From Eledone cirrhosa (Eukaryota): a stretch of 64,000 nt of DNA. Below are positions 2,121 to 34,746 of the stretch, in pieces. The DNA is taken from contig OZ024743.1 in NCBI GenBank assembly GCA_964016885.1, forward strand, positions 376,464,001-376,528,000, written 5' to 3'. The notes below the pieces were generated by a model, which saw only the letters and a program-made list of their open reading frames with translations, did not search any database and was not told the DNA's origin. The position numbers were made by a program, and so were the translations under genes. Positions within the stretch are counted from its first letter, which is position 1, and the number at the start of each line of letters is the position of its first letter.

Positions 2121-2397
2121 TAATAGAATCATTTGATAAAATATATACACTATTTCCTCTCCCAATTAGCATAATTAACGACATAAAAAATCAATTAGAC
2201 CAGGCTATAAGAGTAAAGGCTCCTATGAAGAAATATTTGATAAATAAACGAAAGCAGCCTCTTCGCGGCTGACCGCAATAGAATATTTACCCAACATTTC
2301 AACAGCATGTAGAAATCGACTAAATATACCGTCAACCATATACAATTAGGTATACATTTAAAGTTAGAAGAAATGCGTATACTCTTGCCGTGATTGT

Positions 2398-2476
2398 GTC
2401 CCTACCCTGGGGTTTCGTTCGCGTTTTGAGATAGCCTATTAAGGATAAATCTCGAGTATCGAACTCATCAGGAGAC
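2398..2476 (-). ncRNA. Type I hammerhead ribozyme in TA-flanked element (about 2120-2577)
   Basis: Minus strand: gtctc CTGATGA gttcg..cgaac GAAA ccc ca ggg TA gggac. Stems I, II and III all pair. Confidence 0.85.
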
Positions 2477-2573
2477 AAACTCTTAGGGCAGTTAATTTTC
2501 CAAAGAAATCCTCGCCAGAAATAGATTAAAAAATGGCTAAGAATCGTGACTTGGCAGTGGTCAAGTTAGAAAG

Positions 2574-2789: not shown

Positions 2790-2909
2790 TAATACAAATT
2801 TGGTATAAATTTCCGAGAGTAAGAGCACTCAGTCCGTAGGACGAGTTAAGTAACTAGTTATATATACAAACATGCATACATACATACATAAATACATACA
2901 TACATACAT

Positions 2910-3248
2910 GATGGCTGCCCACTCGTTATCGAGTATGGCCTTTGCACGATATACCATTATTAATAATTATCAATTAATTCTATCGTGCAATGCCTGTGCG
3001 CGAAGATATTTTTAAAGTGAGAAAAGACTGTGCACTGAGCCAATCCCACTCTCTGAGCGACAGTAGCTATAATCCGAAAAGAAGAAAAGATCAACATCAT
3101 CGGTAACTACTGAGCTGCAGGTTTTACATCGGAGTTATCCCAGTTTCCTGAGTTGCCTTCTCCTAGAAGAATACCCTGACAAAGGCTATGGGTCCTTCAC
3201 TCCCAGTGGTTTAAATGCGCGATCGGATATCCAGCCTATATCCCTGCG
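2910..3248. mobile_element. Dispersed repeat, possibly RTE-LINE 5'UTR/SINE-related
   Basis: 2910-3150 recurs inverted at about 61585-61822. 3146-3248 recurs directly at about 61360-61475. Confidence 0.65.
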
Positions 3249-3361
3249 CATATACATACACATGTACATGTGTACATACATACATACATACATACATACA
3301 TACATACATACATACATACATACATACATGTATAATCAGTTTATCGAAAAATGGTGCTTGC

Positions 3362-3438
3362 TGGATGTCCACAAAGTCACTAGACAATTTTATACAAATA
3401 GATATATCAAATTGTCTAGTGACTTTGTGGACACCCAT
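3362..3438. mobile_element. Tc1/mariner-type MITE (hairpin)
   Basis: tgtccacaaagtcactagacaattt / aaattgtctagtgactttgtggaca inverted repeat, followed by TA. Confidence 0.7.
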
Positions 3439-3801
3439 ATATATATATATAAACATATATATATATATATATATATAGTATGCTAGGGAAAGGATCAGGG
3501 GTGTATAACACTCCACTTATCCAGCAGGCAGTATGAGGTTAGCTCAATGTCTGAGGACAGAGCCGTAATATAATAAGTGCCTTCGTGGGCCCCTGATGTT
3601 TTCAAGAAATGTATTTTGAAAAATTGGTCAAGTGATACACATAACTGTGACATTTAGTGCCTTCGTGGGCCCCTGATATATTCAAGAGATATATTCTAAA
3701 AAAATATATATCTTATCTCAATTTACTTTATTTCATTTTATTTTATTTCATTTCATGTTATCTAATTTTATTTATTTACTTACTTGACTCCATTTATTTA
3801 C

Positions 3802-3844
<43 letters not shown>

Positions 3845-3920
3845 TATTTAAATTTAGATTTTAATTTTAAAATTTTAAAATTTTAATTTTAATTTTATTT
3901 ATTTATTTAATTTTTAATTT

Positions 3921-3952
<32 letters not shown>

Positions 3953-4563
3953 TTACATTTAATTACATTTAATTATACATATAATTATAATTACACATTT
4001 GATTTTAATTTTAATTTAGTCTATGTTATTTGATTTTAGTTTACCTTATTTTATCTTATTTTACGATTATACTATATTATGTTCTATGTATATAATTTTT
4101 AATTTTTAATTGTATATTATTTTATCTCATTCCTTACCCTATATTTTATATTTTATATGTAAGTTTGTTATGTATTTCTTTGTATTTCTTTTTATATATA
4201 TTATAAGTCTGTTTTTTACCTATTTTTTACCTATTTTTTACCTATTTTTTACCTATTTTTTACCTATTTTTTACCTATTTTTTACCTACTCTTACCTAAT
4301 CCCATTATCTTATCTACTCTTGTCTGTTCTCTTATCCATGTGTCTACTCTTGTCTGTTCTCTTATCCATGTGTATGCTTGTATGTAACTATATGTTGACA
4401 GCACACCGCCCAACTGTGACAGATAGCACCCCTTATTTTTATTTTTATTTTTATTTTCACTTTTATTTTTATTTACTTTTTATTCTTATCCTCTATCGTC
4501 TATTATTACCTTTCATTCTTCAATGTCTTGGATTTGTTATTGCTTGTATGGTATGTAATTAAC

Positions 4564-4621
4564 CTTTATGCTCTGATGAGTCCCACTTATAGTGTGGATG
4601 AAACAATGTTAGCAAGTAAAG
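4564..4621 (+). ncRNA. Minimal hammerhead ribozyme, 5' pLTR
   Basis: ctttatgct CTGATGA gtcccac ttata gtgtggat GAAA c aat g TT agca-a-gtaaag. Confidence 0.8.
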
Positions 4622-4827
4622 ATATGCATATGCTATAAGCGTTCTTTGTTATTTATTTATTATATTACGGCTCTGTCCTCAGACATTGAGCTAACCTCAT
4701 ACTGCCTGCTGGATAAGTGGAGTGTTATACACCCCTGATCCTTTCCCTAGCATACTATACGGCTCCCACTGGTTGAGCTTAAACTTTGATATACGCGGAT
4801 TTGCGTCCTTGTATATTATCAGGCAGT

Positions 4828-7318
4828 ATGCTAACAAAGACATACTTACCCATTTCCTTGAAGAATATTCCCACCCACCCCTAAAATCTCGTATGAGAAA
4901 TCATTGATAACTAGCATAAACTCATTCGTAAAACGTGTTCGGTGGCGTGCGTTCCACTTTGATAAGAGGTATGATAGCCCTGAGGAGAGGCGTAGTTTTA
5001 ATAATTATGGATTTAAGACCTATAGGAGCCCCCCGCATAATAGCCTGTTGGATAACTTCGAAAGTGAGCTATTATCCCTTGTTAGGAATATTAGATATAA
5101 AAAATCTAGATGTACCAATAAATTTCAGAGTAAACTAAGTTCAATCGTTAGGGACTTTAGGGATAATAAATCCATTCTGGTCCCCTCTGACAAAACTAAA
5201 AACTTATATAGTATGGATTATAAAACCTATCGAGGCTTCATTTATAATGAACTACATAGGAACTACAAAAAAACAACGCAGAGTAATTTAGATAATATTA
5301 ATCTGGAGGGGTATAACATAGTGGTAAAATTAGGTCTGGATAAACACACTCAGCCTTATTACCCCAGGCAGCCTAGATTCACCCTCAAGGACCACAAGGA
5401 AGATTTTATTAGCAGACCCTCGGTTAGGCTTATCTGCCCCTCCAAGTCTGACCTGGGGATTATTAGTAAGGGAATCTTGGATAGCGTTATTCCCCTGGTT
5501 AGAGAAAAAACTTTCCTTGAGCTTTGGGGTAACACTAGTGAGGTCATTACATGGTTCTCTACTGATTGTGGTCGTGACTCACTAAAATTCATCCAATTTG
5601 ATATTGATGCTTATTATACATCTATATCTCCTATTATCCTCAATAAGGCCCTCATCCTAGCCATGCGGAGGGGGGCAATTACTAGGCCACAGATAGATAT
5701 TGTTCTCGCTGCACGTAAAACCATTATTATGTTTGAGGATAATCTATGGACGAGAAAAAACACACCTGATAATTTTGACATCACTATGGGGTCGAGTGAC
5801 TCTGCTCAAGTCACTGACTTGGTTGGACTATACCTCCTCAATGAACTGCATAGTAACTTCCCTTTCCTTAGGGGTGGGTTGTACCGAGATGACGCCCTAC
5901 TCTCCATAGATACTAGTAAGTATAATATAGAGCGCATTAGGAAAAAGCTGCATAGCTTTTTTAAAACTTTTAACCTATCCATTACAATGGATGTAAATGA
6001 TAGAACTGTGAACTTCCTAGATGTTACACTGGACCTGGATAACCATACGTACACACCGTACCATAAGCCCAATGAATTGCTGACTTACGTGAATACCTAC
6101 TCCAACCACCCTAGGTCTGTCATCAGCGGTATACTGAAGGGCGTATCTAATAGAATAAGTTCACTCTCACATAGTGAGGAGGCGTTTGACTCGCAGGCTG
6201 ATTACTATAACGACGCCTTAGCTAGATCCGGCTTTAGGGACAAATTGTATTACACCCAGGGAAATAATGGTCCTAATAGTGGCTCTACCAGTGTTGTTAT
6301 AACACATAATATGTCCATTGGTAATCGAGGTGTCGCGAATGGGAGGGTTCTAAATGCCGGTGGAATGAAACAGCAGGGCACCATTAGTCTAAGTAATAAC
6401 AATAGAGGTGTCGTGAACGGGAGGTTTCTAGATGCCGGTGGAATGAACCAGCAGGGCACCATTGGTATAAGTAATAGCAATGGTGGGCCTCGCAGCTCCC
6501 CGCATGGACTAGGTGAGCATAGGAACCGTAGAAACAATAATGCTAATAATACTGATGGAAATAGAAAGAATAAAAAGAATAGAAGAAGATTGAATACATA
6601 CTTCAACCCCCCTCTTAATTCTGAAGTGGCTACAAATATTCCTAGGGCCTTCTTCTCTGTGCTAGAACGGAACTTCCCTCCTGGTAATAGGTACCACTCT
6701 ATCCTCAATAAGAATGTTGTTAAACTTTCATATTCTACAACCCAAAATCTAGCCTCTCATCTGGCCATTACTAATAATAAGAAAATAAAGGAAGGCCTGG
6801 ACAACCTAAGCCTAGGGGAAAACACGGTAGTGGATAGAGTGGGCAGTGACACTGGTGGTGATCTTTCTGAGAATAGCATCACCAGAGGTTGTAACTGTAG
6901 AAGGGCTTCGGGCTGCCCCCTGAATGGTTTCTGCCTTGTTAGAAACATAGTTTATGCGTGTGATGTGGTAACTACGGCGTCCACTATGACCTATATAGGA
7001 TCAACTTCCACCCCCTTTAAGACCAGGTTTAACTCTCATCAATGCACTTTTAGACATAATAAACTGAAGAACTCCACCTCCTTGGCAGCGTACGTCCATA
7101 ATTTAAAAAATGCACGGACACCTTACACACTTACTTGGCGGCAGGTTGCCAAATCCCATCCATATACTCCTCATAGTAGAGTATGCAACCTGTGCCTTGC
7201 CGAATCCCACTCTATTATATTTGCTAAATGCCCTCTACTAAATAGAAAGTCTGAAATTTTTTCCTCTTGCCCCCACCGAATATTAAGCTCTTTCTTCTAC
7301 TTTAAACCTGTTAGCTAG
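4828..7318 (+). CDS. PLE reverse transcriptase-GIY-YIG endonuclease (Naiad-like); ATG 4828 with a frameshift near 4870-4881, open 4904-7318
   Basis: RT motifs QFDIDAYY, MGSSDSA, YRDD, FLDVTL. CNCxxxxxCP linker, IVY/YIG, CNLC, LLN, CPH. Clade assignment is from motif recall. Confidence 0.9.
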
Positions 7319-8434
7319 CACGTCCTTATTCCTCCAGTTGGGCTGTCTTGTGTAACTGTCTCTGACTGAGTGTAACTGTCTCCTAATGTTGGTCGTCTAT
7401 GTATACGAGTCTGTGAATGTATACGTATGCCTGTGGGAGGATATTGATCTTGATATTGGGGTGTGCAGGGGAGTGTATGTTAATAAGCACCCCTGTTTGG
7501 TACAGTGGATGTAACCCATCCACGCTGGCCTACCCACCATTAGTGCATTGGTGGACCTATCCTGACGTATATCTTGTTGATTTGTACCTCTGTATGCGCA
7601 TGAGTTGTGATGTAATGTATTTATGTAAAGCGTGTACTGTGATTTAGGCTGCACTAGTAGAAATTTAGCCTGTAACTGTGGCGGACCCGAGCCATCCTGC
7701 CGTAAGCAGTGGATACGTGGCGCATATATGTGTTGCCCTCATATTCCGTGGTTCAAGATCTACAGGCTGACCTCTGGGAACTCTTACCCGGGGTTGTAGT
7801 CTTTCTAGCACGATCGGCCTTCCTTATATTGACGGTCGTTTTTATGATCCCGAAAGTAACGTTTTGGCCCCGATGGCCCTCCGTAGTTACTAACGGTCTG
7901 TGTACACTGGAATCGGTCAATGGCACGTGCAGACATGAATATCTCCGTAGGATTTCAACTGTATTTTAATACATCTCATCGTATGTATTTGTTTTGAATA
8001 TATTACCTGTGGTGGTGGGTCTGATCTAATGTGGTATTTCGGTGTTTAATATTTAATATTGTATTTAATATCGTATTTAATATCGACTTTGACCCGGGTA
8101 TCCTACGCTGTGTGTGTGGGCGTGTGTGCCCGTGTATACATTTATATGTCTATGGGTGTAGGTGGTTATATGTGTCTGTGTGTATATATATAAAAAAAAA
8201 TATATATATATATATATGTATACCGTCTCTGCATGTGCATGTGGTGTGTATACGTGCATATACGTACTGAACATATTGATGTGTACAATCTTGTGATGTC
8301 CCAATGCGGTGACTTAATGGCTTTTATATTTTGTATTTTGTATGCGCTACAACTGTATCTGCTTGCTTTAACCAAACGCTTGCATGTGAATTCTTCTACC
8401 TCCTTTGATGCACCTTTCTGACCATTTGACTCCT

Positions 8435-8795
8435 GCCCGTGTTGAACCGGTTTGTGATTACCCCACCGCTCGAGTGATACTGGTGACTGTGACACTTAGC
8501 GCCTTCGTGGGCCCCTGATGTTCTCAAGAAATATATTTTTAAAAAATTGGTGTGTGAACCGGTTTGTGATTACCCCACCGCTCAACTGTGTGAATGCACA
8601 CCCATGACTTTCGAGTGAACTTTCGAGACTGCCCAACCTGGGACGCCTCCATTGCCTTGCAATGGTCAAGTGATACTGGTGACTGTGACACTTAGTGCCT
8701 TCGTGGGCCCCTGATGTTTTCAAGAAATGTATTTTGAAAAATTGGTCAAGTGATACACATAACTGTGACATTTAGTGCCTTCGTGGGCCCCTGAT
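8435..8795 (+). repeat. Imperfect subrepeats at pLTR start
   Basis: gccttcgtgggcccctgat x3, aaccggtttgtgattaccccaccgctc x2. Confidence 0.8.
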
Positions 8796-8919
8796 ATATT
8801 CAAGAGATATATTCTAAAAAAATATATATCTTATCTCAATTTACTTTATTTCATTTTATTTTATTTCATTTCATGTTATCTAATTTTATTTATTTACTTA
8901 CTTGACTCCATTTATTTAC

Positions 8920-8958
<39 letters not shown>

Positions 8959-9034
8959 TATTTAAATTTAGATTTTAATTTTAAAATTTTAAAATTTAAA
9001 TTTAAATTTTATTTATTTATTTAATTTTTAATTT

Positions 9035-9066
<32 letters not shown>

Positions 9067-9655
9067 TTACATTTAATTACATTTAATTATACATATAATT
9101 ATAATTACACATTTGATTTTAATTTTAATTTAGTCTATGTTATTTGATTTTAGTTTACCTTATTTTATCTTATTTTACGATTATACTATATTATGTTCTA
9201 TGTATATAATTTTTAATTTTTAATTGTATATTATTTTATCTCATTCCTTACCCTATATTTTATATTTTATATGTAAGTTTGTTATGTATTTCTTTGTATT
9301 TCTTTTTATATATATTATAAGTCTGTTTTTTACCTATTTTTTACCTATTTTTTACCTATTTTTTACCTATTTTTTACCTACTCTTACCTAATCCCATTAT
9401 CTTATCTACTCTTGTCCGTTCTCTTATCCATGTGTCTACTCTTGTCTGTTCTCTTATCCATGTGTATGCTTGTATGTAACTATATGTTGACAGCACACCG
9501 CCCAACTGTGACAGATAGCACCCCTTATTTTTATTTTTATTTTTATTTTCACTTTTATTTTTATTTACTTTTTATTCTTATCCTCTATCGTCTATTATTA
9601 CCTTTCATTCTTCAATGTCTTGGATTTGTTATTGCTTGTATGGTATGTAATTAAC

Positions 9656-9713
9656 CTTTATGCTCTGATGAGTCCCACTTATAGTGTGGATGAAACAATG
9701 TTAGCAAGTAAAG
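9656..9713 (+). ncRNA. Minimal hammerhead ribozyme, 3' pLTR
   Basis: Identical to 4564-4621. Confidence 0.8.
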
Positions 9714-9749
9714 ATATGCATATGCTATAAGCGTTCTTTGTTATTTATT

Positions 9750-10121
<372 letters not shown>

Positions 10122-10125
<4 letters not shown>

Positions 10126-11659
10126 AAGGTTTAGCAAATAATGAAAAAGTTTCAAAATAAATTTTAAAAAATTGACTTTACCTACTATAGTTACCTTTAC
10201 CGATCGGTTTCGAATCCCAAAAATAAAACGGAGACCATACGGCCTTCGTTGCAAAGAAAGATTCTCGTCAGAAGGTTCTTTTCATTCAAAGAATATAAAA
10301 TTCCTGAATTTAAATCACAGACTAGCGCTATCAAAACTGTTCCCGGGATGAGAGTGGATGATGTAGAAACAGGTTTATCAAGGGCCGAAGCAAAGATAGA
10401 GGCAGAAGGAGGTAGGTCAAACAAGCCACAGCTATCGCTAGCAGCAGTCAGAACGACCAAATTTGTTCTCAACATTAGTGGAGGTAGTAGTAATAGGATA
10501 TGAGTTCCTTCACGCACAAGGCGCTAAGGTACGCATGTATTGTCCAACCAAATGCCAGTGTGGTTCAATGGCGGGTTAATAAATTAACGAGCCAGAACAA
10601 ATATAAACAAGCTTTAGAAAATAATGAAAAAGTTTCAAAATAAATTTTAAAAAATTGACTTTACCTACTATTGTTACCTTTACCGATCGGTTTCGAATCC
10701 CAAAAATAAAACGGAGACCATACGGCCTTCGTTGCAAAGAAAGATTCTCGTCAGAAGGTTCTTTTCATTCAAAGAATATAAAATTCCTGAATTTAAATCA
10801 CAGACTAGCGCTATCAAAACTGTTCCCGGGATGAGAGTGGATGATGTAGAAACAGGTTTATCAAGGGCCGAAGCAAAGATAGAGGCAGAAGGAGGTAGGT
10901 CAAACAAGCCACAGCTATCGCTAGCAGCAGTCAGAACGACTTAATTTGTTCTCAACATTAGTGGAGGTAGTAGTAATAGGATATGAGTTCCTTCACGCAC
11001 AAGGCGCTAAGGTACGCATGTATTGTCCAACCAAATGCCAGTGTGGTTCAATGGCGGGTTAATAAATTAACGAGCCAGAACAAATATAAACAAGCTTTAG
11101 CAAATAATGAAAAAGTTTCAAAATAAATTTTAAAAAATTGACTTTACCTACTATAGTTACCTTTACCGATCGGTTTCGAATCCCAAAAATAAAACGGAGA
11201 CCATACGGCCTTCGTTGCAAAGAAAGATTCTCGTCAGAAGGTTCTTTTCATTCAAAGAATATAAAATTCCTGAATTTAAATCACAGACTAGCGCTATCAA
11301 AACTGTTCCCGGGATGAGAGTGGATGATGTAGAAACAGGTTTATCAAGGGCCGAAGCAAAGATAGAGGCAGAAGGAGGTAGGTCAAACCAGCCACAGCTA
11401 TCGCTAGCAGCAGTCAGAACGACCAAATTTGTTCTCAACATTAGTGGAGGTAGTAGTAATAGGATATGAGTTCCTTCACGCACAAGGCACTAAGGTACGC
11501 ATGTATTGTCCAACCAATTAAAATTTATTTTGAAACTTTTTCATTATTTGCTAAACCTTGTTTATATTTGTTCTGGCTCGTTAATTTATTAACCCGCCAT
11601 TGAACCACACTGGCATTTGGTTGGACAATACATGCGTACATGTGAAGGAACTCATATCC

Positions 11660-11663
<4 letters not shown>
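10122..11663 (-). mobile_element. 483-bp tandem hammerhead repeat (about 2.9 units) with terminal inversion (11518-11663); retrozyme-like
   Basis: Units start at 10122, 10605 and 11088. One HHR per unit. (TA)n on both sides. Confidence 0.9.
10193..10276 (-). ncRNA. Type I hammerhead ribozyme (copies at 10676-10759, 11159-11242, 16123-16206, 16633-16716)
   Basis: acctt CTGACGA gaatc..gattc GAAA ccgatcgg TA aaggt. Palindromic stem III. Confidence 0.9.
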
Positions 11664-11709
<46 letters not shown>

Positions 11710-11968: not shown

Positions 11969-12910
11969 TACATATATAAGTATGTACACGTACATACATA
12001 TATGTATACAGACATACAGTAGTATGTATATATATATACATATATGCACACATATATATATGTACGTATGGATTCACCGAACATTTATTATAATGCTCGG
12101 TGTGTTTGTAAACAAACATCCCGTATTAAGCCGTAGTGTCTAGCAACCATCGTTGCTCGTTTGTTCAACACTGACAAAGGAGCGCTGTACTAGATTCAAG
12201 CTTATTAGCTATCGTCAGCAACGTATTCCTACCTGCCAGATTGTTGAACGTCTGAAAGTATATACTTTCCTTATGCATATTAACGGCTGAGTAGCCCAAT
12301 TTGCATATCGAGTGGGTTAATCGGCCGTATACAGACGATTAATGTATACAGACATATGTATATATGTATACAGACATACTACTGTATGTCTGTATACATA
12401 TATGTATGTACGTGTACATATTTATATTTAAGTAACAGCCGTACTAAGAGTGGGAAAGGAAATTTCGTTTCATTTTTTCCGTTTATGGTTTCTGTGCACC
12501 CGGCCGATTAACCCACTCGATATGCAAATTGGGCTACTCAGCCGTTAATATGCATAAGGAAAGTATATACTTTCAGACGTTCAACAATCTGGCAGGAAGG
12601 TATACGTTGCTGACGATAGTTAATAAGCTTGAAACTAGTACAGCGTTCCTTTGCCAGTGTTGAACAAACGAGGAACGATGGTTGCTAGACACTACGGCTT
12701 AATACGGGATGTTTGTTTACAAACACACCGAGCATTATAATAAATGTTCGGTGAATCCATACGTACATATATATATGTGTGCGTGTATGTATATATATAT
12801 ATACATACTACTGTATGTCTGTATACATATATGTATGTACGTGTACATACTTATATTTAAGTAACAACCATACTAAGAGTGGGAAATGAAATTCCCTTCC
12901 ATTTTTTCAG
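11969..12910 (+). mobile_element. Non-coding hammerhead element with large inversion
   Basis: 11969-12327 is an inverted copy of about 12501-12857. Other copies at 17635-18103, 23940-24263, 41828-42016. Confidence 0.85.
12605..12645 (+). ncRNA. Minimal hammerhead ribozyme (inverted copy 12182-12222 has GAAT; another copy at 24206-24246, minus)
   Basis: cgttg CTGACGA tagtt aata agctt GAAA ctag TA cagcg. Confidence 0.85.
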
Positions 12911-12913
12911 TCT

Positions 12914-14218
<1,305 letters not shown>

Positions 14219-33739: not shown

Positions 33740-33869
33740 GCCGCCGCGGCCGCCGCCGCCTCTTCTGCCTCCACTTCTGGCCCTCCATCAGCGGCCGCCG
33801 CCGCCGTCAACTCTGTCGGGACTGGGCTAGAACTTATGTCCACAAGTAGTAACAACAACCATAACAACC

Positions 33870-33900
<31 letters not shown>

Positions 33901-34740
33901 CCACAGCCACAACAACCATCACCACAACAACAACCACAACAACCACAACAACCACAACAACCACAACAACAACATCAACCAAGCTACAGTTGGTACAAAC
34001 GTAACTAGTGTTCTATCTACATCAACATCATCTTGTTCCCCTTCGTCCTTATCGCCACCGGGGGCGGCATCTTCCCTAGTGGTGCAGCAACACCATCAAA
34101 GCCAAGCTGCTTTAAGTGGTGGACTAAACATAAACGTAGCCCCACCACAGCCTCCACCTGCACATTTGTCTCCGTCCCAACGTAACCAGACGTCAAGTCC
34201 TTCTTCGGTAATCTTACACGGTCATACACACCATCACCACAGTATCAATACCCTCACCTCTTCTTCTGCAAACTCAACTAGTGCGGTCACATCGCACCCG
34301 CCCAATATGCTGGTCAACAGCGTCGTTACGGCCGTGTCGGCTGCGGCCGCTGCCGCTGCGGCAGCGGCCGGAGCCACGGGGGTGTGTAAGTTGACTAAAC
34401 CATCAACATACAGTTCCCCACCACCGATTGCTAATAACCCTGAAAATAACGTCTGCAAATTGATTGAATACCGTGGTGCAAAAGTAGCAGCTTTCATGGT
34501 CAATGGAATCGAACTGATTTGCCTACCGCAAGCATTTGACCTGTTCCTCAAACACTTGGTGGGAGGTTTGCATACTGTCTATACAAAACTGAAACGTCTA
34601 GACATTACACCAGTTGTTTGTAACGTTGAGCAAGTAAGAATCCTCCGCGGTCTAGGAGCAATTCAACCGGGAGTAAACCGCTGCAAGTTGTTGTCGTGCA
34701 AAGAATTCGATATATTATACGAGGACTGTACGAACTCCAG
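33413..34740 (+). CDS. dac: Dachshund homolog, probable first coding exon (low-complexity N-terminus + DD1/Ski-Sno domain)
   Basis: CKLIEYRGAKVAAF...LCLPQAFDLFLKHLVGGLHTVYTKLKRLDITPVVCNVEQVRILRGLGAIQPGVNRCKL-type signature. First ATG at 33413 (alternative 33431). Donor AG|GTGAGT at 34740/34741. Confidence 0.96.
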
Positions 34741-34746
34741 GTGAGT
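34739..34746 (+). other. 5' splice donor (phase 2)
   Basis: ag|gtgagt at the end of DD1, before the expected RPGRPPKR. Confidence 0.9.

What the first reader, a model, noticed from the sequence alone, without database searches (positions are those of the whole stretch)
10122..11663. 483-bp hammerhead trimer with inversion at its 5' end; second subfamily 4.4 kb away
About 2.9 near-identical units each have a minus-strand HHR with a long stem II insert and palindrome accgatcggt. The inversion lies at the 5' end of the ribozyme strand. The diverged copy at 16053-16783 ends at almost the same 3' position. Its HHR region is conserved while the rest has more substitutions, consistent with constraint on the ribozyme.
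Basis: partly seen in the sequence, partly recalled or inferred. Interest (0 to 1): 0.75.

Follow-up and report, generated by a model that had tools for sequence, protein, structure and literature searches.

The report
Octopus hammerhead retrozyme, long-armed ribozyme
This is a protein-free 483-base tandem repeat in an octopus genome that carries a predicted self-cutting hammerhead RNA with an unusually long side arm and was likely pasted into TA microsatellites by a Penelope-type retrotransposon's enzymes; it is a new member of a known class (retrozymes), and neither cutting nor RNA has been shown.

Summary
Array A is 2.9 x 483 bp (10122-11517) plus a 147-nt inverted arm (11518-11664). Array B (16053-16782) is 1.4 units of a subfamily about 8% diverged. 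All 5 units carry a complete minus-strand type I hammerhead: CUGACGA core, GAAA, GUA site, 53-nt stem II and a 10-nt palindromic stem III; 0 of 5000 shuffled units match as well.

Both arrays sit in (TA)n and share the same 3' end, 76 nt past the predicted cut and inside an ATATA motif. Their 5' ends are ragged. This is the insertion anatomy of Penelope-like elements (PLEs). The host is an octopus, and the family with its 483-bp period recurs in other sequencing runs.

The conserved block (unit 1-166) covers the ribozyme and also the tail up to the insertion end, so constraint is not ribozyme-specific.

Verdict: a new family of the known non-LTR retrozyme (non-autonomous PLE) class. Its variant features are a long stem II that Rfam misses and a two-armed insertion. 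Cleavage, RNA, circles and the partner PLE were not shown. This scan has already noted similar long-stem-II, two-armed retrozymes on other DNA.

The parts
10122..10604 (-). Unit A1, 3'-terminal unit of the main arm; 3' end at unit position 1 inside an ATATA overlap with the (TA)n flank
10605..11087 (-). Unit A2 (full 483 nt)
11088..11517 (-). Unit A3, 5'-truncated at unit position 430
11518..11664 (+). Inverted second arm: unit 370-483 plus 1-46 with a 13-nt deletion; contains no hammerhead; outer end joined to (TA)n
10193..10276 (-). Type I hammerhead of A1: stem I 10276-10272/10197-10193, core 10271-10265, stem II 10264-10212, GAAA 10211-10208, palindrome 10208-10199, predicted cut after 10198 (GUA)
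10676..10759 (-). Hammerhead of A2; predicted cut after 10681
11159..11242 (-). Hammerhead of A3; predicted cut after 11164
10090..10121 (.). (TA)n target flank at the 3' end of array A
11665..11709 (.). (TA)n target flank at the 5' end of array A
16053..16562 (-). Unit B1 of the second subfamily (510 nt, with a 26-nt internal duplication at 16195-16246); hammerhead core 16201, predicted cut after 16129; same 3' end register as A
16563..16782 (-). Unit B2, 5'-truncated at about unit position 220, no inverted arm; hammerhead core 16711, predicted cut after 16639

Best explanation
Arrays A and B are two separate tandem insertions of a non-coding 483-nt hammerhead repeat (a non-LTR retrozyme) that were likely written into (TA)n microsatellites by the reverse transcriptase and endonuclease of an autonomous Penelope-like element. 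SHOWN in the sequence: the tandem units, the complete type I hammerhead motif in each, a common 3' end 76 nt past the predicted cut, ragged 5' ends, an inverted 5' arm, and (TA)n on both sides. INFERRED: a minus-strand multimeric transcript is made; two neighbouring hammerheads pair through their 10-nt palindromes (double-hammerhead fold) and would cut after GUA, releasing 483-nt monomers that may circularise. INFERRED: the PLE enzyme nicks (TA)n and starts reverse transcription inside the RNA at a UAUAU motif 76 nt past the cut, probably helped by 5-7 nt of pairing with the target. It runs through several units of an uncut multimer or a circle. The other target strand would prime a second, short cDNA 114 nt further downstream in the unit, and the two arms join head to head, giving the inversion.
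For: Motif beyond chance (0 of 5000 shuffles). All 3 substitutions inside the hammerhead in B keep pairing (U-G to U-A, C-G to U-G twice). In reads from other runs, 1 of the 39 best-supported variable positions lies in the 84-nt hammerhead (binomial p=0.005; 40 of 103 rows shown). The double-hammerhead fold is 9-13 kcal/mol better than two single hammerheads in 3 of 3 unit pairs; the palindrome duplex is -16.6 against a hairpin of -0.9. The 3' ends of A and B coincide at one of only 2 five-nt (AT)n sites in the A unit and at the only 7-nt site in B. The 483-bp head-to-tail joint recurs in 3 of 4 other runs (X2, X5, and X11 with 223 reads from 19 starts), so the period is family-wide. The arm geometry matches priming from both target ends. 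A full PLE (3478-9757; 818-aa frame with RT YxDD and EN-like motifs) and a 310-bp hammerhead array in the same window show the same two-armed, (TA)n-flanked anatomy. Literature: 5' truncation, inverted 5' copies and microsatellite targets are PLE hallmarks (PMC8557442 passages); two internal RT start sites and priming on both strands were shown for PAc (PMC11167929 parts 1-2); animal retrozymes are proposed to be non-autonomous PLE derivatives (bioRxiv 10.64898/2026.07.22.740005 parts 1-3).
Against: No autonomous partner was found. The unit has no clear similarity to the ends of the two PLEs in the window (best score 42 vs shuffle maximum 39, a gappy alignment) and no real tblastn match to 120 PLE-like proteins (best E=0.034); no whole genome was held. 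The active folds are not the predicted minimum: 2.1 kcal/mol above it locally in 4 of 4 hammerheads and 3.4-4.0 above it in two-unit transcripts, where the palindromes pair with probability 0.15, 0.06 and 0.90. The circular monomer is no more folded than shuffles (z -0.54, 40 shuffles), unlike the 'highly self-paired' retrozyme circles. A2 and A3 share a derived base at unit position 8, which copying of one circle does not explain. In PAc the RT start site is not homologous to the target and hammerhead cleavage was dispensable. Only 1 of 9 Xenopus retrozyme dimers cleaved in vitro.
Confidence: 0.8

Rival explanations
1. The family is mobilised by PLE enzymes, but the hammerhead is an inherited passenger that rarely cuts. 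Templates are linear multimeric transcripts, no circle is involved, and part of the array grew by local duplication or gene conversion after insertion.
For: A2 and A3 share a derived allele at unit position 8, while A1, the inverted arm, B and nearly all reads carry the other base. The active fold is above the predicted minimum. The conserved block extends beyond the ribozyme. PAc insertion does not need cleavage, and 8 of 9 Xenopus dimers did not cleave.
Against: The core is intact in 5 of 5 units and the changes within it keep pairing. Variable sites are depleted there across runs. The tandem period is family-wide, so local duplication is not the origin of the unit.
Confidence: 0.3
2. A local DNA satellite born from one PLE terminal repeat by unequal crossing-over or slippage, with no RNA step for the array.
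For: This route is discussed in the 2026 preprint. The shared derived base in A2/A3 and a 26-nt slippage duplication in B1 show DNA-level duplication happens here.
Against: Two separate arrays of different subfamilies share the 3' end, have ragged 5' ends and lie between (TA)n runs. The same head-to-tail joint occurs in other runs. An inverted arm is present.
Confidence: 0.08
3. The unit is a small protein-coding or structural host RNA gene, and the hammerhead is a chance match.
For: Stop-free frames of 111 aa (+) and 108 aa (-) exist in A1 and A3. Rfam does not call a hammerhead.
Against: No Pfam match for either frame; no homologue among longer proteins for the + frame. The + frame has a stop in A2 and both frames are broken by indels in B. 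Motif chance is 0 of 5000.
Confidence: 0.02

Closest known systems
Metazoan non-LTR retrozymes (Cervera and de la Pena 2020, PMC7229834; passages and section 14 read)
   Same: Short non-coding tandem repeats, one type I hammerhead per unit, GC under 45%, dispersed multicopy; known in a mollusc (mussel).
   Different: Unit of 483 nt against about 170-400 nt; 53-nt stem II; 3-bp stem III within a 10-nt palindrome; monomer not especially self-paired; RNA and circles not shown here.
Non-autonomous PLE derivatives (Li, Clavereau, Pollet, bioRxiv 10.64898/2026.07.22.740005; parts 1-3 of 5 read; supplements closed)
   Same: Tandem repeats with at least two consecutive complete hammerheads, which is their criterion for an active retrozyme; unit size within their 51-972 bp range; PLEs co-occur in the genome.
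   Different: Their sample (31 vertebrates, 3 insects, 1 coral) has no cephalopod; homology to a PLE pLTR, shown there for Xenopus families, was not found here.
Penelope-like element insertions and PAc internal initiation (PMC8557442 passages; PMC11167929 parts 1-2 of 4)
   Same: 5' truncation, inverted 5' copy, partial tandems, microsatellite or AT-rich target, 3' end downstream of the hammerhead, two start positions.
   Different: No RT/EN frame. The two inferred start sites are 114 nt apart, not 30-40. The main start shows 5-7 nt identity to the (TA)n target, whereas PAc starts at a non-homologous site.
PLE and metazoan type I hammerheads that work as dimers (Cervera and de la Pena 2014, PMC4209133; passages)
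   Same: Short stem I, palindromic helix III, G10.1-C11.1 pair, predicted dimeric active fold.
   Different: Helix II there is at most 7-8 bp; here a 7-bp stem is extended by an internal loop and two further helices (53 nt in all), and there is no extra base between positions 9 and 10.1.

Membership tests
Type I hammerhead ribozyme | Core CUGANGA, GAAA and NUH site in type I order | tested here: met
   CUGACGA / GAAA / GUA in 5 of 5 units
Type I hammerhead ribozyme | Three helices around the core, with G10.1-C11.1 and A15.1-U16.1 | tested here: met
   Stem I 5 bp, stem II 7 bp plus extension, stem III 3 bp or 10-bp dimer duplex; the active fold is 2-4 kcal/mol above the predicted minimum
Type I hammerhead ribozyme | Match to an Rfam hammerhead model | tested here: not met
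   0 hits at gathering score in the window; none of the 150 rows shown of 162 at E up to 5 overlaps the arrays. The long stem II is the likely reason
Type I hammerhead ribozyme | Loop 1-loop 2 tertiary contact | not testable with these tools
   No structure data
Type I hammerhead ribozyme | Self-cleavage | not testable with these tools
   Needs an in vitro assay or RNA ends
Non-LTR retrozyme | Tandem units each with a complete type I hammerhead (two or more in a row) | tested here: met
   3 in A, 2 in B
Non-LTR retrozyme | Non-coding | tested here: met
   Frames of 108-111 aa have no Pfam match, the + frame has no longer homologue, both are broken in B, and there is no PLE protein remnant
Non-LTR retrozyme | GC under 45% and small unit | tested here: met
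   GC 39%; 483 nt is above the 170-400 nt of PMC7229834 but within the 51-972 bp of the 2026 preprint
Non-LTR retrozyme | Dispersed multicopy family | tested here: met
   971 contigs (X2) and 2089 reads (X11) laid on one unit, with many variant alleles and the 483-bp joint; copy number not measured
Non-LTR retrozyme | Expressed as linear and circular monomer RNA | not testable with these tools
   No RNA holder listed
Non-LTR retrozyme | Highly self-paired monomer circle (a described trait, not a diagnostic) | tested here: not met
   Circular MFE -100.4 vs shuffles -97.1 +/- 6.2
Non-autonomous PLE derivative | PLE insertion anatomy: fixed 3' end, 5' truncation, inverted 5' arm, microsatellite target | tested here: met
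   2 of 2 arrays share the 3' end and are 5'-truncated in (TA)n; 1 of 2 has the inverted arm
Non-autonomous PLE derivative | Sequence homology to the pLTR of an autonomous PLE | tested here: inconclusive
   None to the 2 PLEs in the window; no genome available
Autonomous Penelope-like element | RT plus GIY-YIG open reading frame | tested here: not met
   Absent from both arrays

The most novel reading that the evidence does not exclude
Octopus retrozymes of this kind form a long-stem-II hammerhead subclass, invisible to Rfam and short-spacer descriptors, in which the 53-nt arm is a selected functional domain (a tertiary contact or a handle for the PLE protein). Their insertions record a PLE mechanism not described from PAc: both target strands prime cDNA at two fixed internal sites, the main one by base-pairing of (TA)n with a UAUAU motif, while the enzyme rolls around a 483-nt RNA circle.
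Probability: 0.2. Interest if true: 0.55.

Novelty: new member of a known kind. Interest (0 to 1): 0.3.

Why it matters
The class is known and its link to Penelope-like elements is in print, so this is mainly a new family in a lineage (octopus) where my searches found no description. Those searches were 'hammerhead ribozyme + octopus', 'Penelope + octopus + transposable + cephalopod' and a term search of the 2026 O. vulgaris repeat annotation PMC13282606, with 0 occurrences of ribozyme or retrozyme in the main text (supplements not opened).

It has modest value in two ways. First, a 53-nt stem II escapes Rfam, so ribozyme counts in such genomes are likely underestimates. Second, small two-armed insertions with a fixed, target-like 3' start give a compact test of how PLE enzymes start and finish reverse transcription, which is still poorly known. 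The scan has seen the same features in several other repeats, so this locus is not unique.

Tried and rejected
- No whole genome is held, so no copy census or partner search was possible.
- No RNA holder listed among the 12 runs; this is no evidence either way on expression.
- Rfam gave no hit at gathering score; the E-value scan was dominated by microsatellite-driven miRNA matches.
None resembles the unit by BLASTN and only 2 of 119 have even 3-bp stems I and II, so these were rejected as chance.
- Read begin/end pile-ups in RAD run X11 fall on AATT sites (6 of the 6 shown). They are restriction ends, not ribozyme or insertion ends.
- The 3' end could not be tested across copies: reads are cut at TA repeats, and only 23 of 196 loose-end rows were shown, none at the 3'-end position.
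- Summed contig depth is not a copy number and was not used as one.
- The coding-frame hypothesis was rejected; the minus-strand frame was not searched for homologues.
- A weak local alignment to the 3' end of the neighbouring PLE was judged chance.
- The paper search for 'long/extended stem II' hammerheads returned 1 unrelated paper; a phrase search cannot show absence from print.

Full report
Observation. The window is animal DNA rich in (TA)n. A dachshund exon at 33200-34744 (Pfam PF02437) is 100% identical over the aligned part to Octopus bimaculoides dachshund, so the host is an octopus; I did not fix the species. Array A consists of A1 10122-10604, A2 10605-11087 and A3 11088-11517 (period 483, 2.9 copies). 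It is followed by an inverted arm, 11518-11664, which equals unit positions 370-483 plus 1-46 with a 13-nt deletion. Array B (16053-16782) has one full unit with a 26-nt internal duplication and a 220-nt partial unit; A1 and B1 differ by 38 substitutions. Both arrays have (TA)n on both sides.

The ribozyme motif. Each of the 5 units carries, on the minus strand, a 5-bp stem I, the core CUGACGA, a 52-53-nt stem II closed by 7 bp starting with G10.1-C11.1, GAAA, the palindrome ACCGAUCGGU and a GUA site. Of 5000 dinucleotide-shuffled units, 0 gave a motif as good and 6 gave a loose one. Stem II folds as an interrupted hairpin (z -2.0; 7 of 200 shuffles as good). Rfam does not detect it. As a single unit, the active fold lies 2.1 kcal/mol above a fold in which the core pairs with the palindrome (4 of 4 tested). 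In two-unit transcripts the double-hammerhead fold, with a 10-bp palindrome duplex, is 9-13 kcal/mol better than two single hammerheads, but still 3.4-4.0 above the unconstrained minimum (3 of 3). This fits the dimer mode described for metazoan and PLE hammerheads with palindromic helix III (PMC4209133, passages). It is a prediction only; cleavage is untested.

Constraint. Between A1 and B1 the hammerhead has 2 substitutions in 84 nt (p=0.043 against the rest), the tail between the cut and the insertion end has 1 in 71 (p=0.029), and unit 167-408 has 30 in 242. The three hammerhead changes in B1/B2 all keep pairing. In four other runs laid on one unit, 1 of the 39 best-supported variable positions falls in the hammerhead (p=0.005) and 0 in the inner 39 nt of stem II (p=0.04). 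Only 40 of 103 rows were shown, and some rows are alleles private to the reference unit. So the ribozyme, including its long arm, looks constrained, but so does the tail.

Insertion anatomy. The 3' ends of A and B are in the same register, 76 nt past the predicted cut. There the unit itself reads ATATA (A) or ATATATA (B), continuous with the flanking (TA)n. Such sites are rare in the unit: 2 of 483 positions in A and 1 of 510 in B. The 5' ends differ (unit 430 with inversion; about unit 220). A fixed 3' end with ragged 5' ends points to target-primed reverse transcription of a minus-strand RNA, the strand that carries the hammerhead. Because the insertion runs past the cut site and through several units, the template was an uncut multimer or a circle, and priming was internal.

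The inverted arm reads in cDNA sense from its outer end (unit 370, 114 nt downstream of the main start), as expected if the second target strand primed its own cDNA. This resembles twin priming of L1 (recalled, no call). Whether this second site is fixed is only weakly supported. Summed contig depth in X2 rises from 2,894 to 11,099 to 24,136 across unit positions of about 347-397, and one X5 contig joins (AT)n to this region. Raw reads of X11 show only a mild rise. The idea of two fixed ends came from earlier scan notes.

Other insertions in the window show the same layout. A full-length PLE (3478-9757, hammerheads at 4573 and 9665) has arm starts about 90 nt apart. A 310-bp hammerhead array (19667-21816) has arm starts 33 nt apart. 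PLE insertions are known to be 5'-truncated, often with an inverted 5' copy, and biased to microsatellites (PMC8557442, passages). Purified PAc protein extends both target strands from two internal RNA sites, though without homology to the target and without needing hammerhead cleavage (PMC11167929, parts 1-2 of 4).

Family. Eight of 12 listed runs hold part of the repeat, none more than 43% of its words and none on record as RNA. One unit attracted 971 contigs in X2, 29 in X5, 6 in X7 and 2089 of 12.8 million reads in X11. The 483-bp head-to-tail joint was seen in 3 of these 4 runs, and a 513-nt contig in X3 spans more than one period. Several majority alleles in those runs differ from both window subfamilies, so they probably come from relatives of the window's species (inference). 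Copy number was not measured.

Against a simple single-circle model. A2 and A3 share a derived base at unit position 8 that A1, the inverted arm, B and almost all reads lack. This needs a heterogeneous linear template, a later local duplication or conversion, or an assembly error. The circular monomer is no more structured than shuffles. No partner PLE was identified.

Comparison and verdict. The element meets the sequence definition of an animal non-LTR retrozyme (PMC7229834, passages and section 14; supplements not opened). The 2026 preprint argues that these are non-autonomous PLE derivatives and reports cleavage for only 1 of 9 dimers tested (parts 1-3 of 5; supplements closed, and they may list similar families). 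It works like a retrozyme mobilised by a PLE; the RNA-level defining features are untested. Its departures are the 53-nt stem II, the larger unit and the target-like main start. Two more hammerhead candidates with 47-48-nt stem II lie in this window. In addition, 317 of 495 earlier scan notes on this genome fit the word hammerhead, and three describe similar long-stem-II retrozymes; those notes are unchecked and are not support. I rate it a new member of a known kind, interest 0.3.

Noticed in passing
window 3478-9757: Apparently full-length Penelope-like element: 818-aa frame (4862-7318) with YRDD and GIY-YIG-like motifs, direct pLTRs 3576-4665 and 8694-9757, canonical hammerheads at 4573 and 9665, and an inverted arm at 3478-3576. 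Pfam gave no hit; relatives exist in Argonauta.
   Followed up: partly
window 24397-28699: Second PLE-like element with a 1252-aa frame (YVDD, CxxxxCxxC linker); fragments at 1-1450 and near 54155-54970. My scan found no canonical hammerhead in it.
   Followed up: partly
window 19667-21816: Another retrozyme-like array: 6.3 x 310 bp, plus-strand hammerhead core at 20097 (short stem II, palindromic ACGCGU stem III, GUA site), inverted arm 19667-19863, arm starts 33 nt apart.
   Followed up: partly
window 2392-2482 and 18295-18381 (minus): Two unrelated hammerhead candidates with 47-48-nt stem II, each in a short (TA)n-flanked element; the one at 18261-18726 is two-armed. The 18370 candidate lacks a good closing pair at the base of stem II.
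   Followed up: partly
window 15745-15815, 16823-16939, 40151, 53123: Further hammerhead-like motifs (weak Rfam HH9 match at 15745-15815, E 0.009; weak Hammerhead_3 match at 16846-16893 inside a palindromic insertion).
   Followed up: no
run X11 laid on window 10685: A variant with one extra base in the stem III palindrome (102 reads at depth 583, 10 starts; also in X2 and X5 contigs). It would break the perfect palindrome and allow a 4-bp monomer stem III, so it is possibly a monomer-active subfamily.
   Followed up: no
runs X2 and X11 laid near window 10507: A subfamily has a more TA-rich sequence at the place where the inverted arm starts (unit about 365-385).
   Followed up: no
window 11974-12903 and 13023-14184: Other inverted or two-armed repeats between TA runs in which my canonical hammerhead scan found nothing.
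   Followed up: no
window 33200-34744: Coding exon of dachshund on the + strand, about 21.5 kb from array A.
   Followed up: partly
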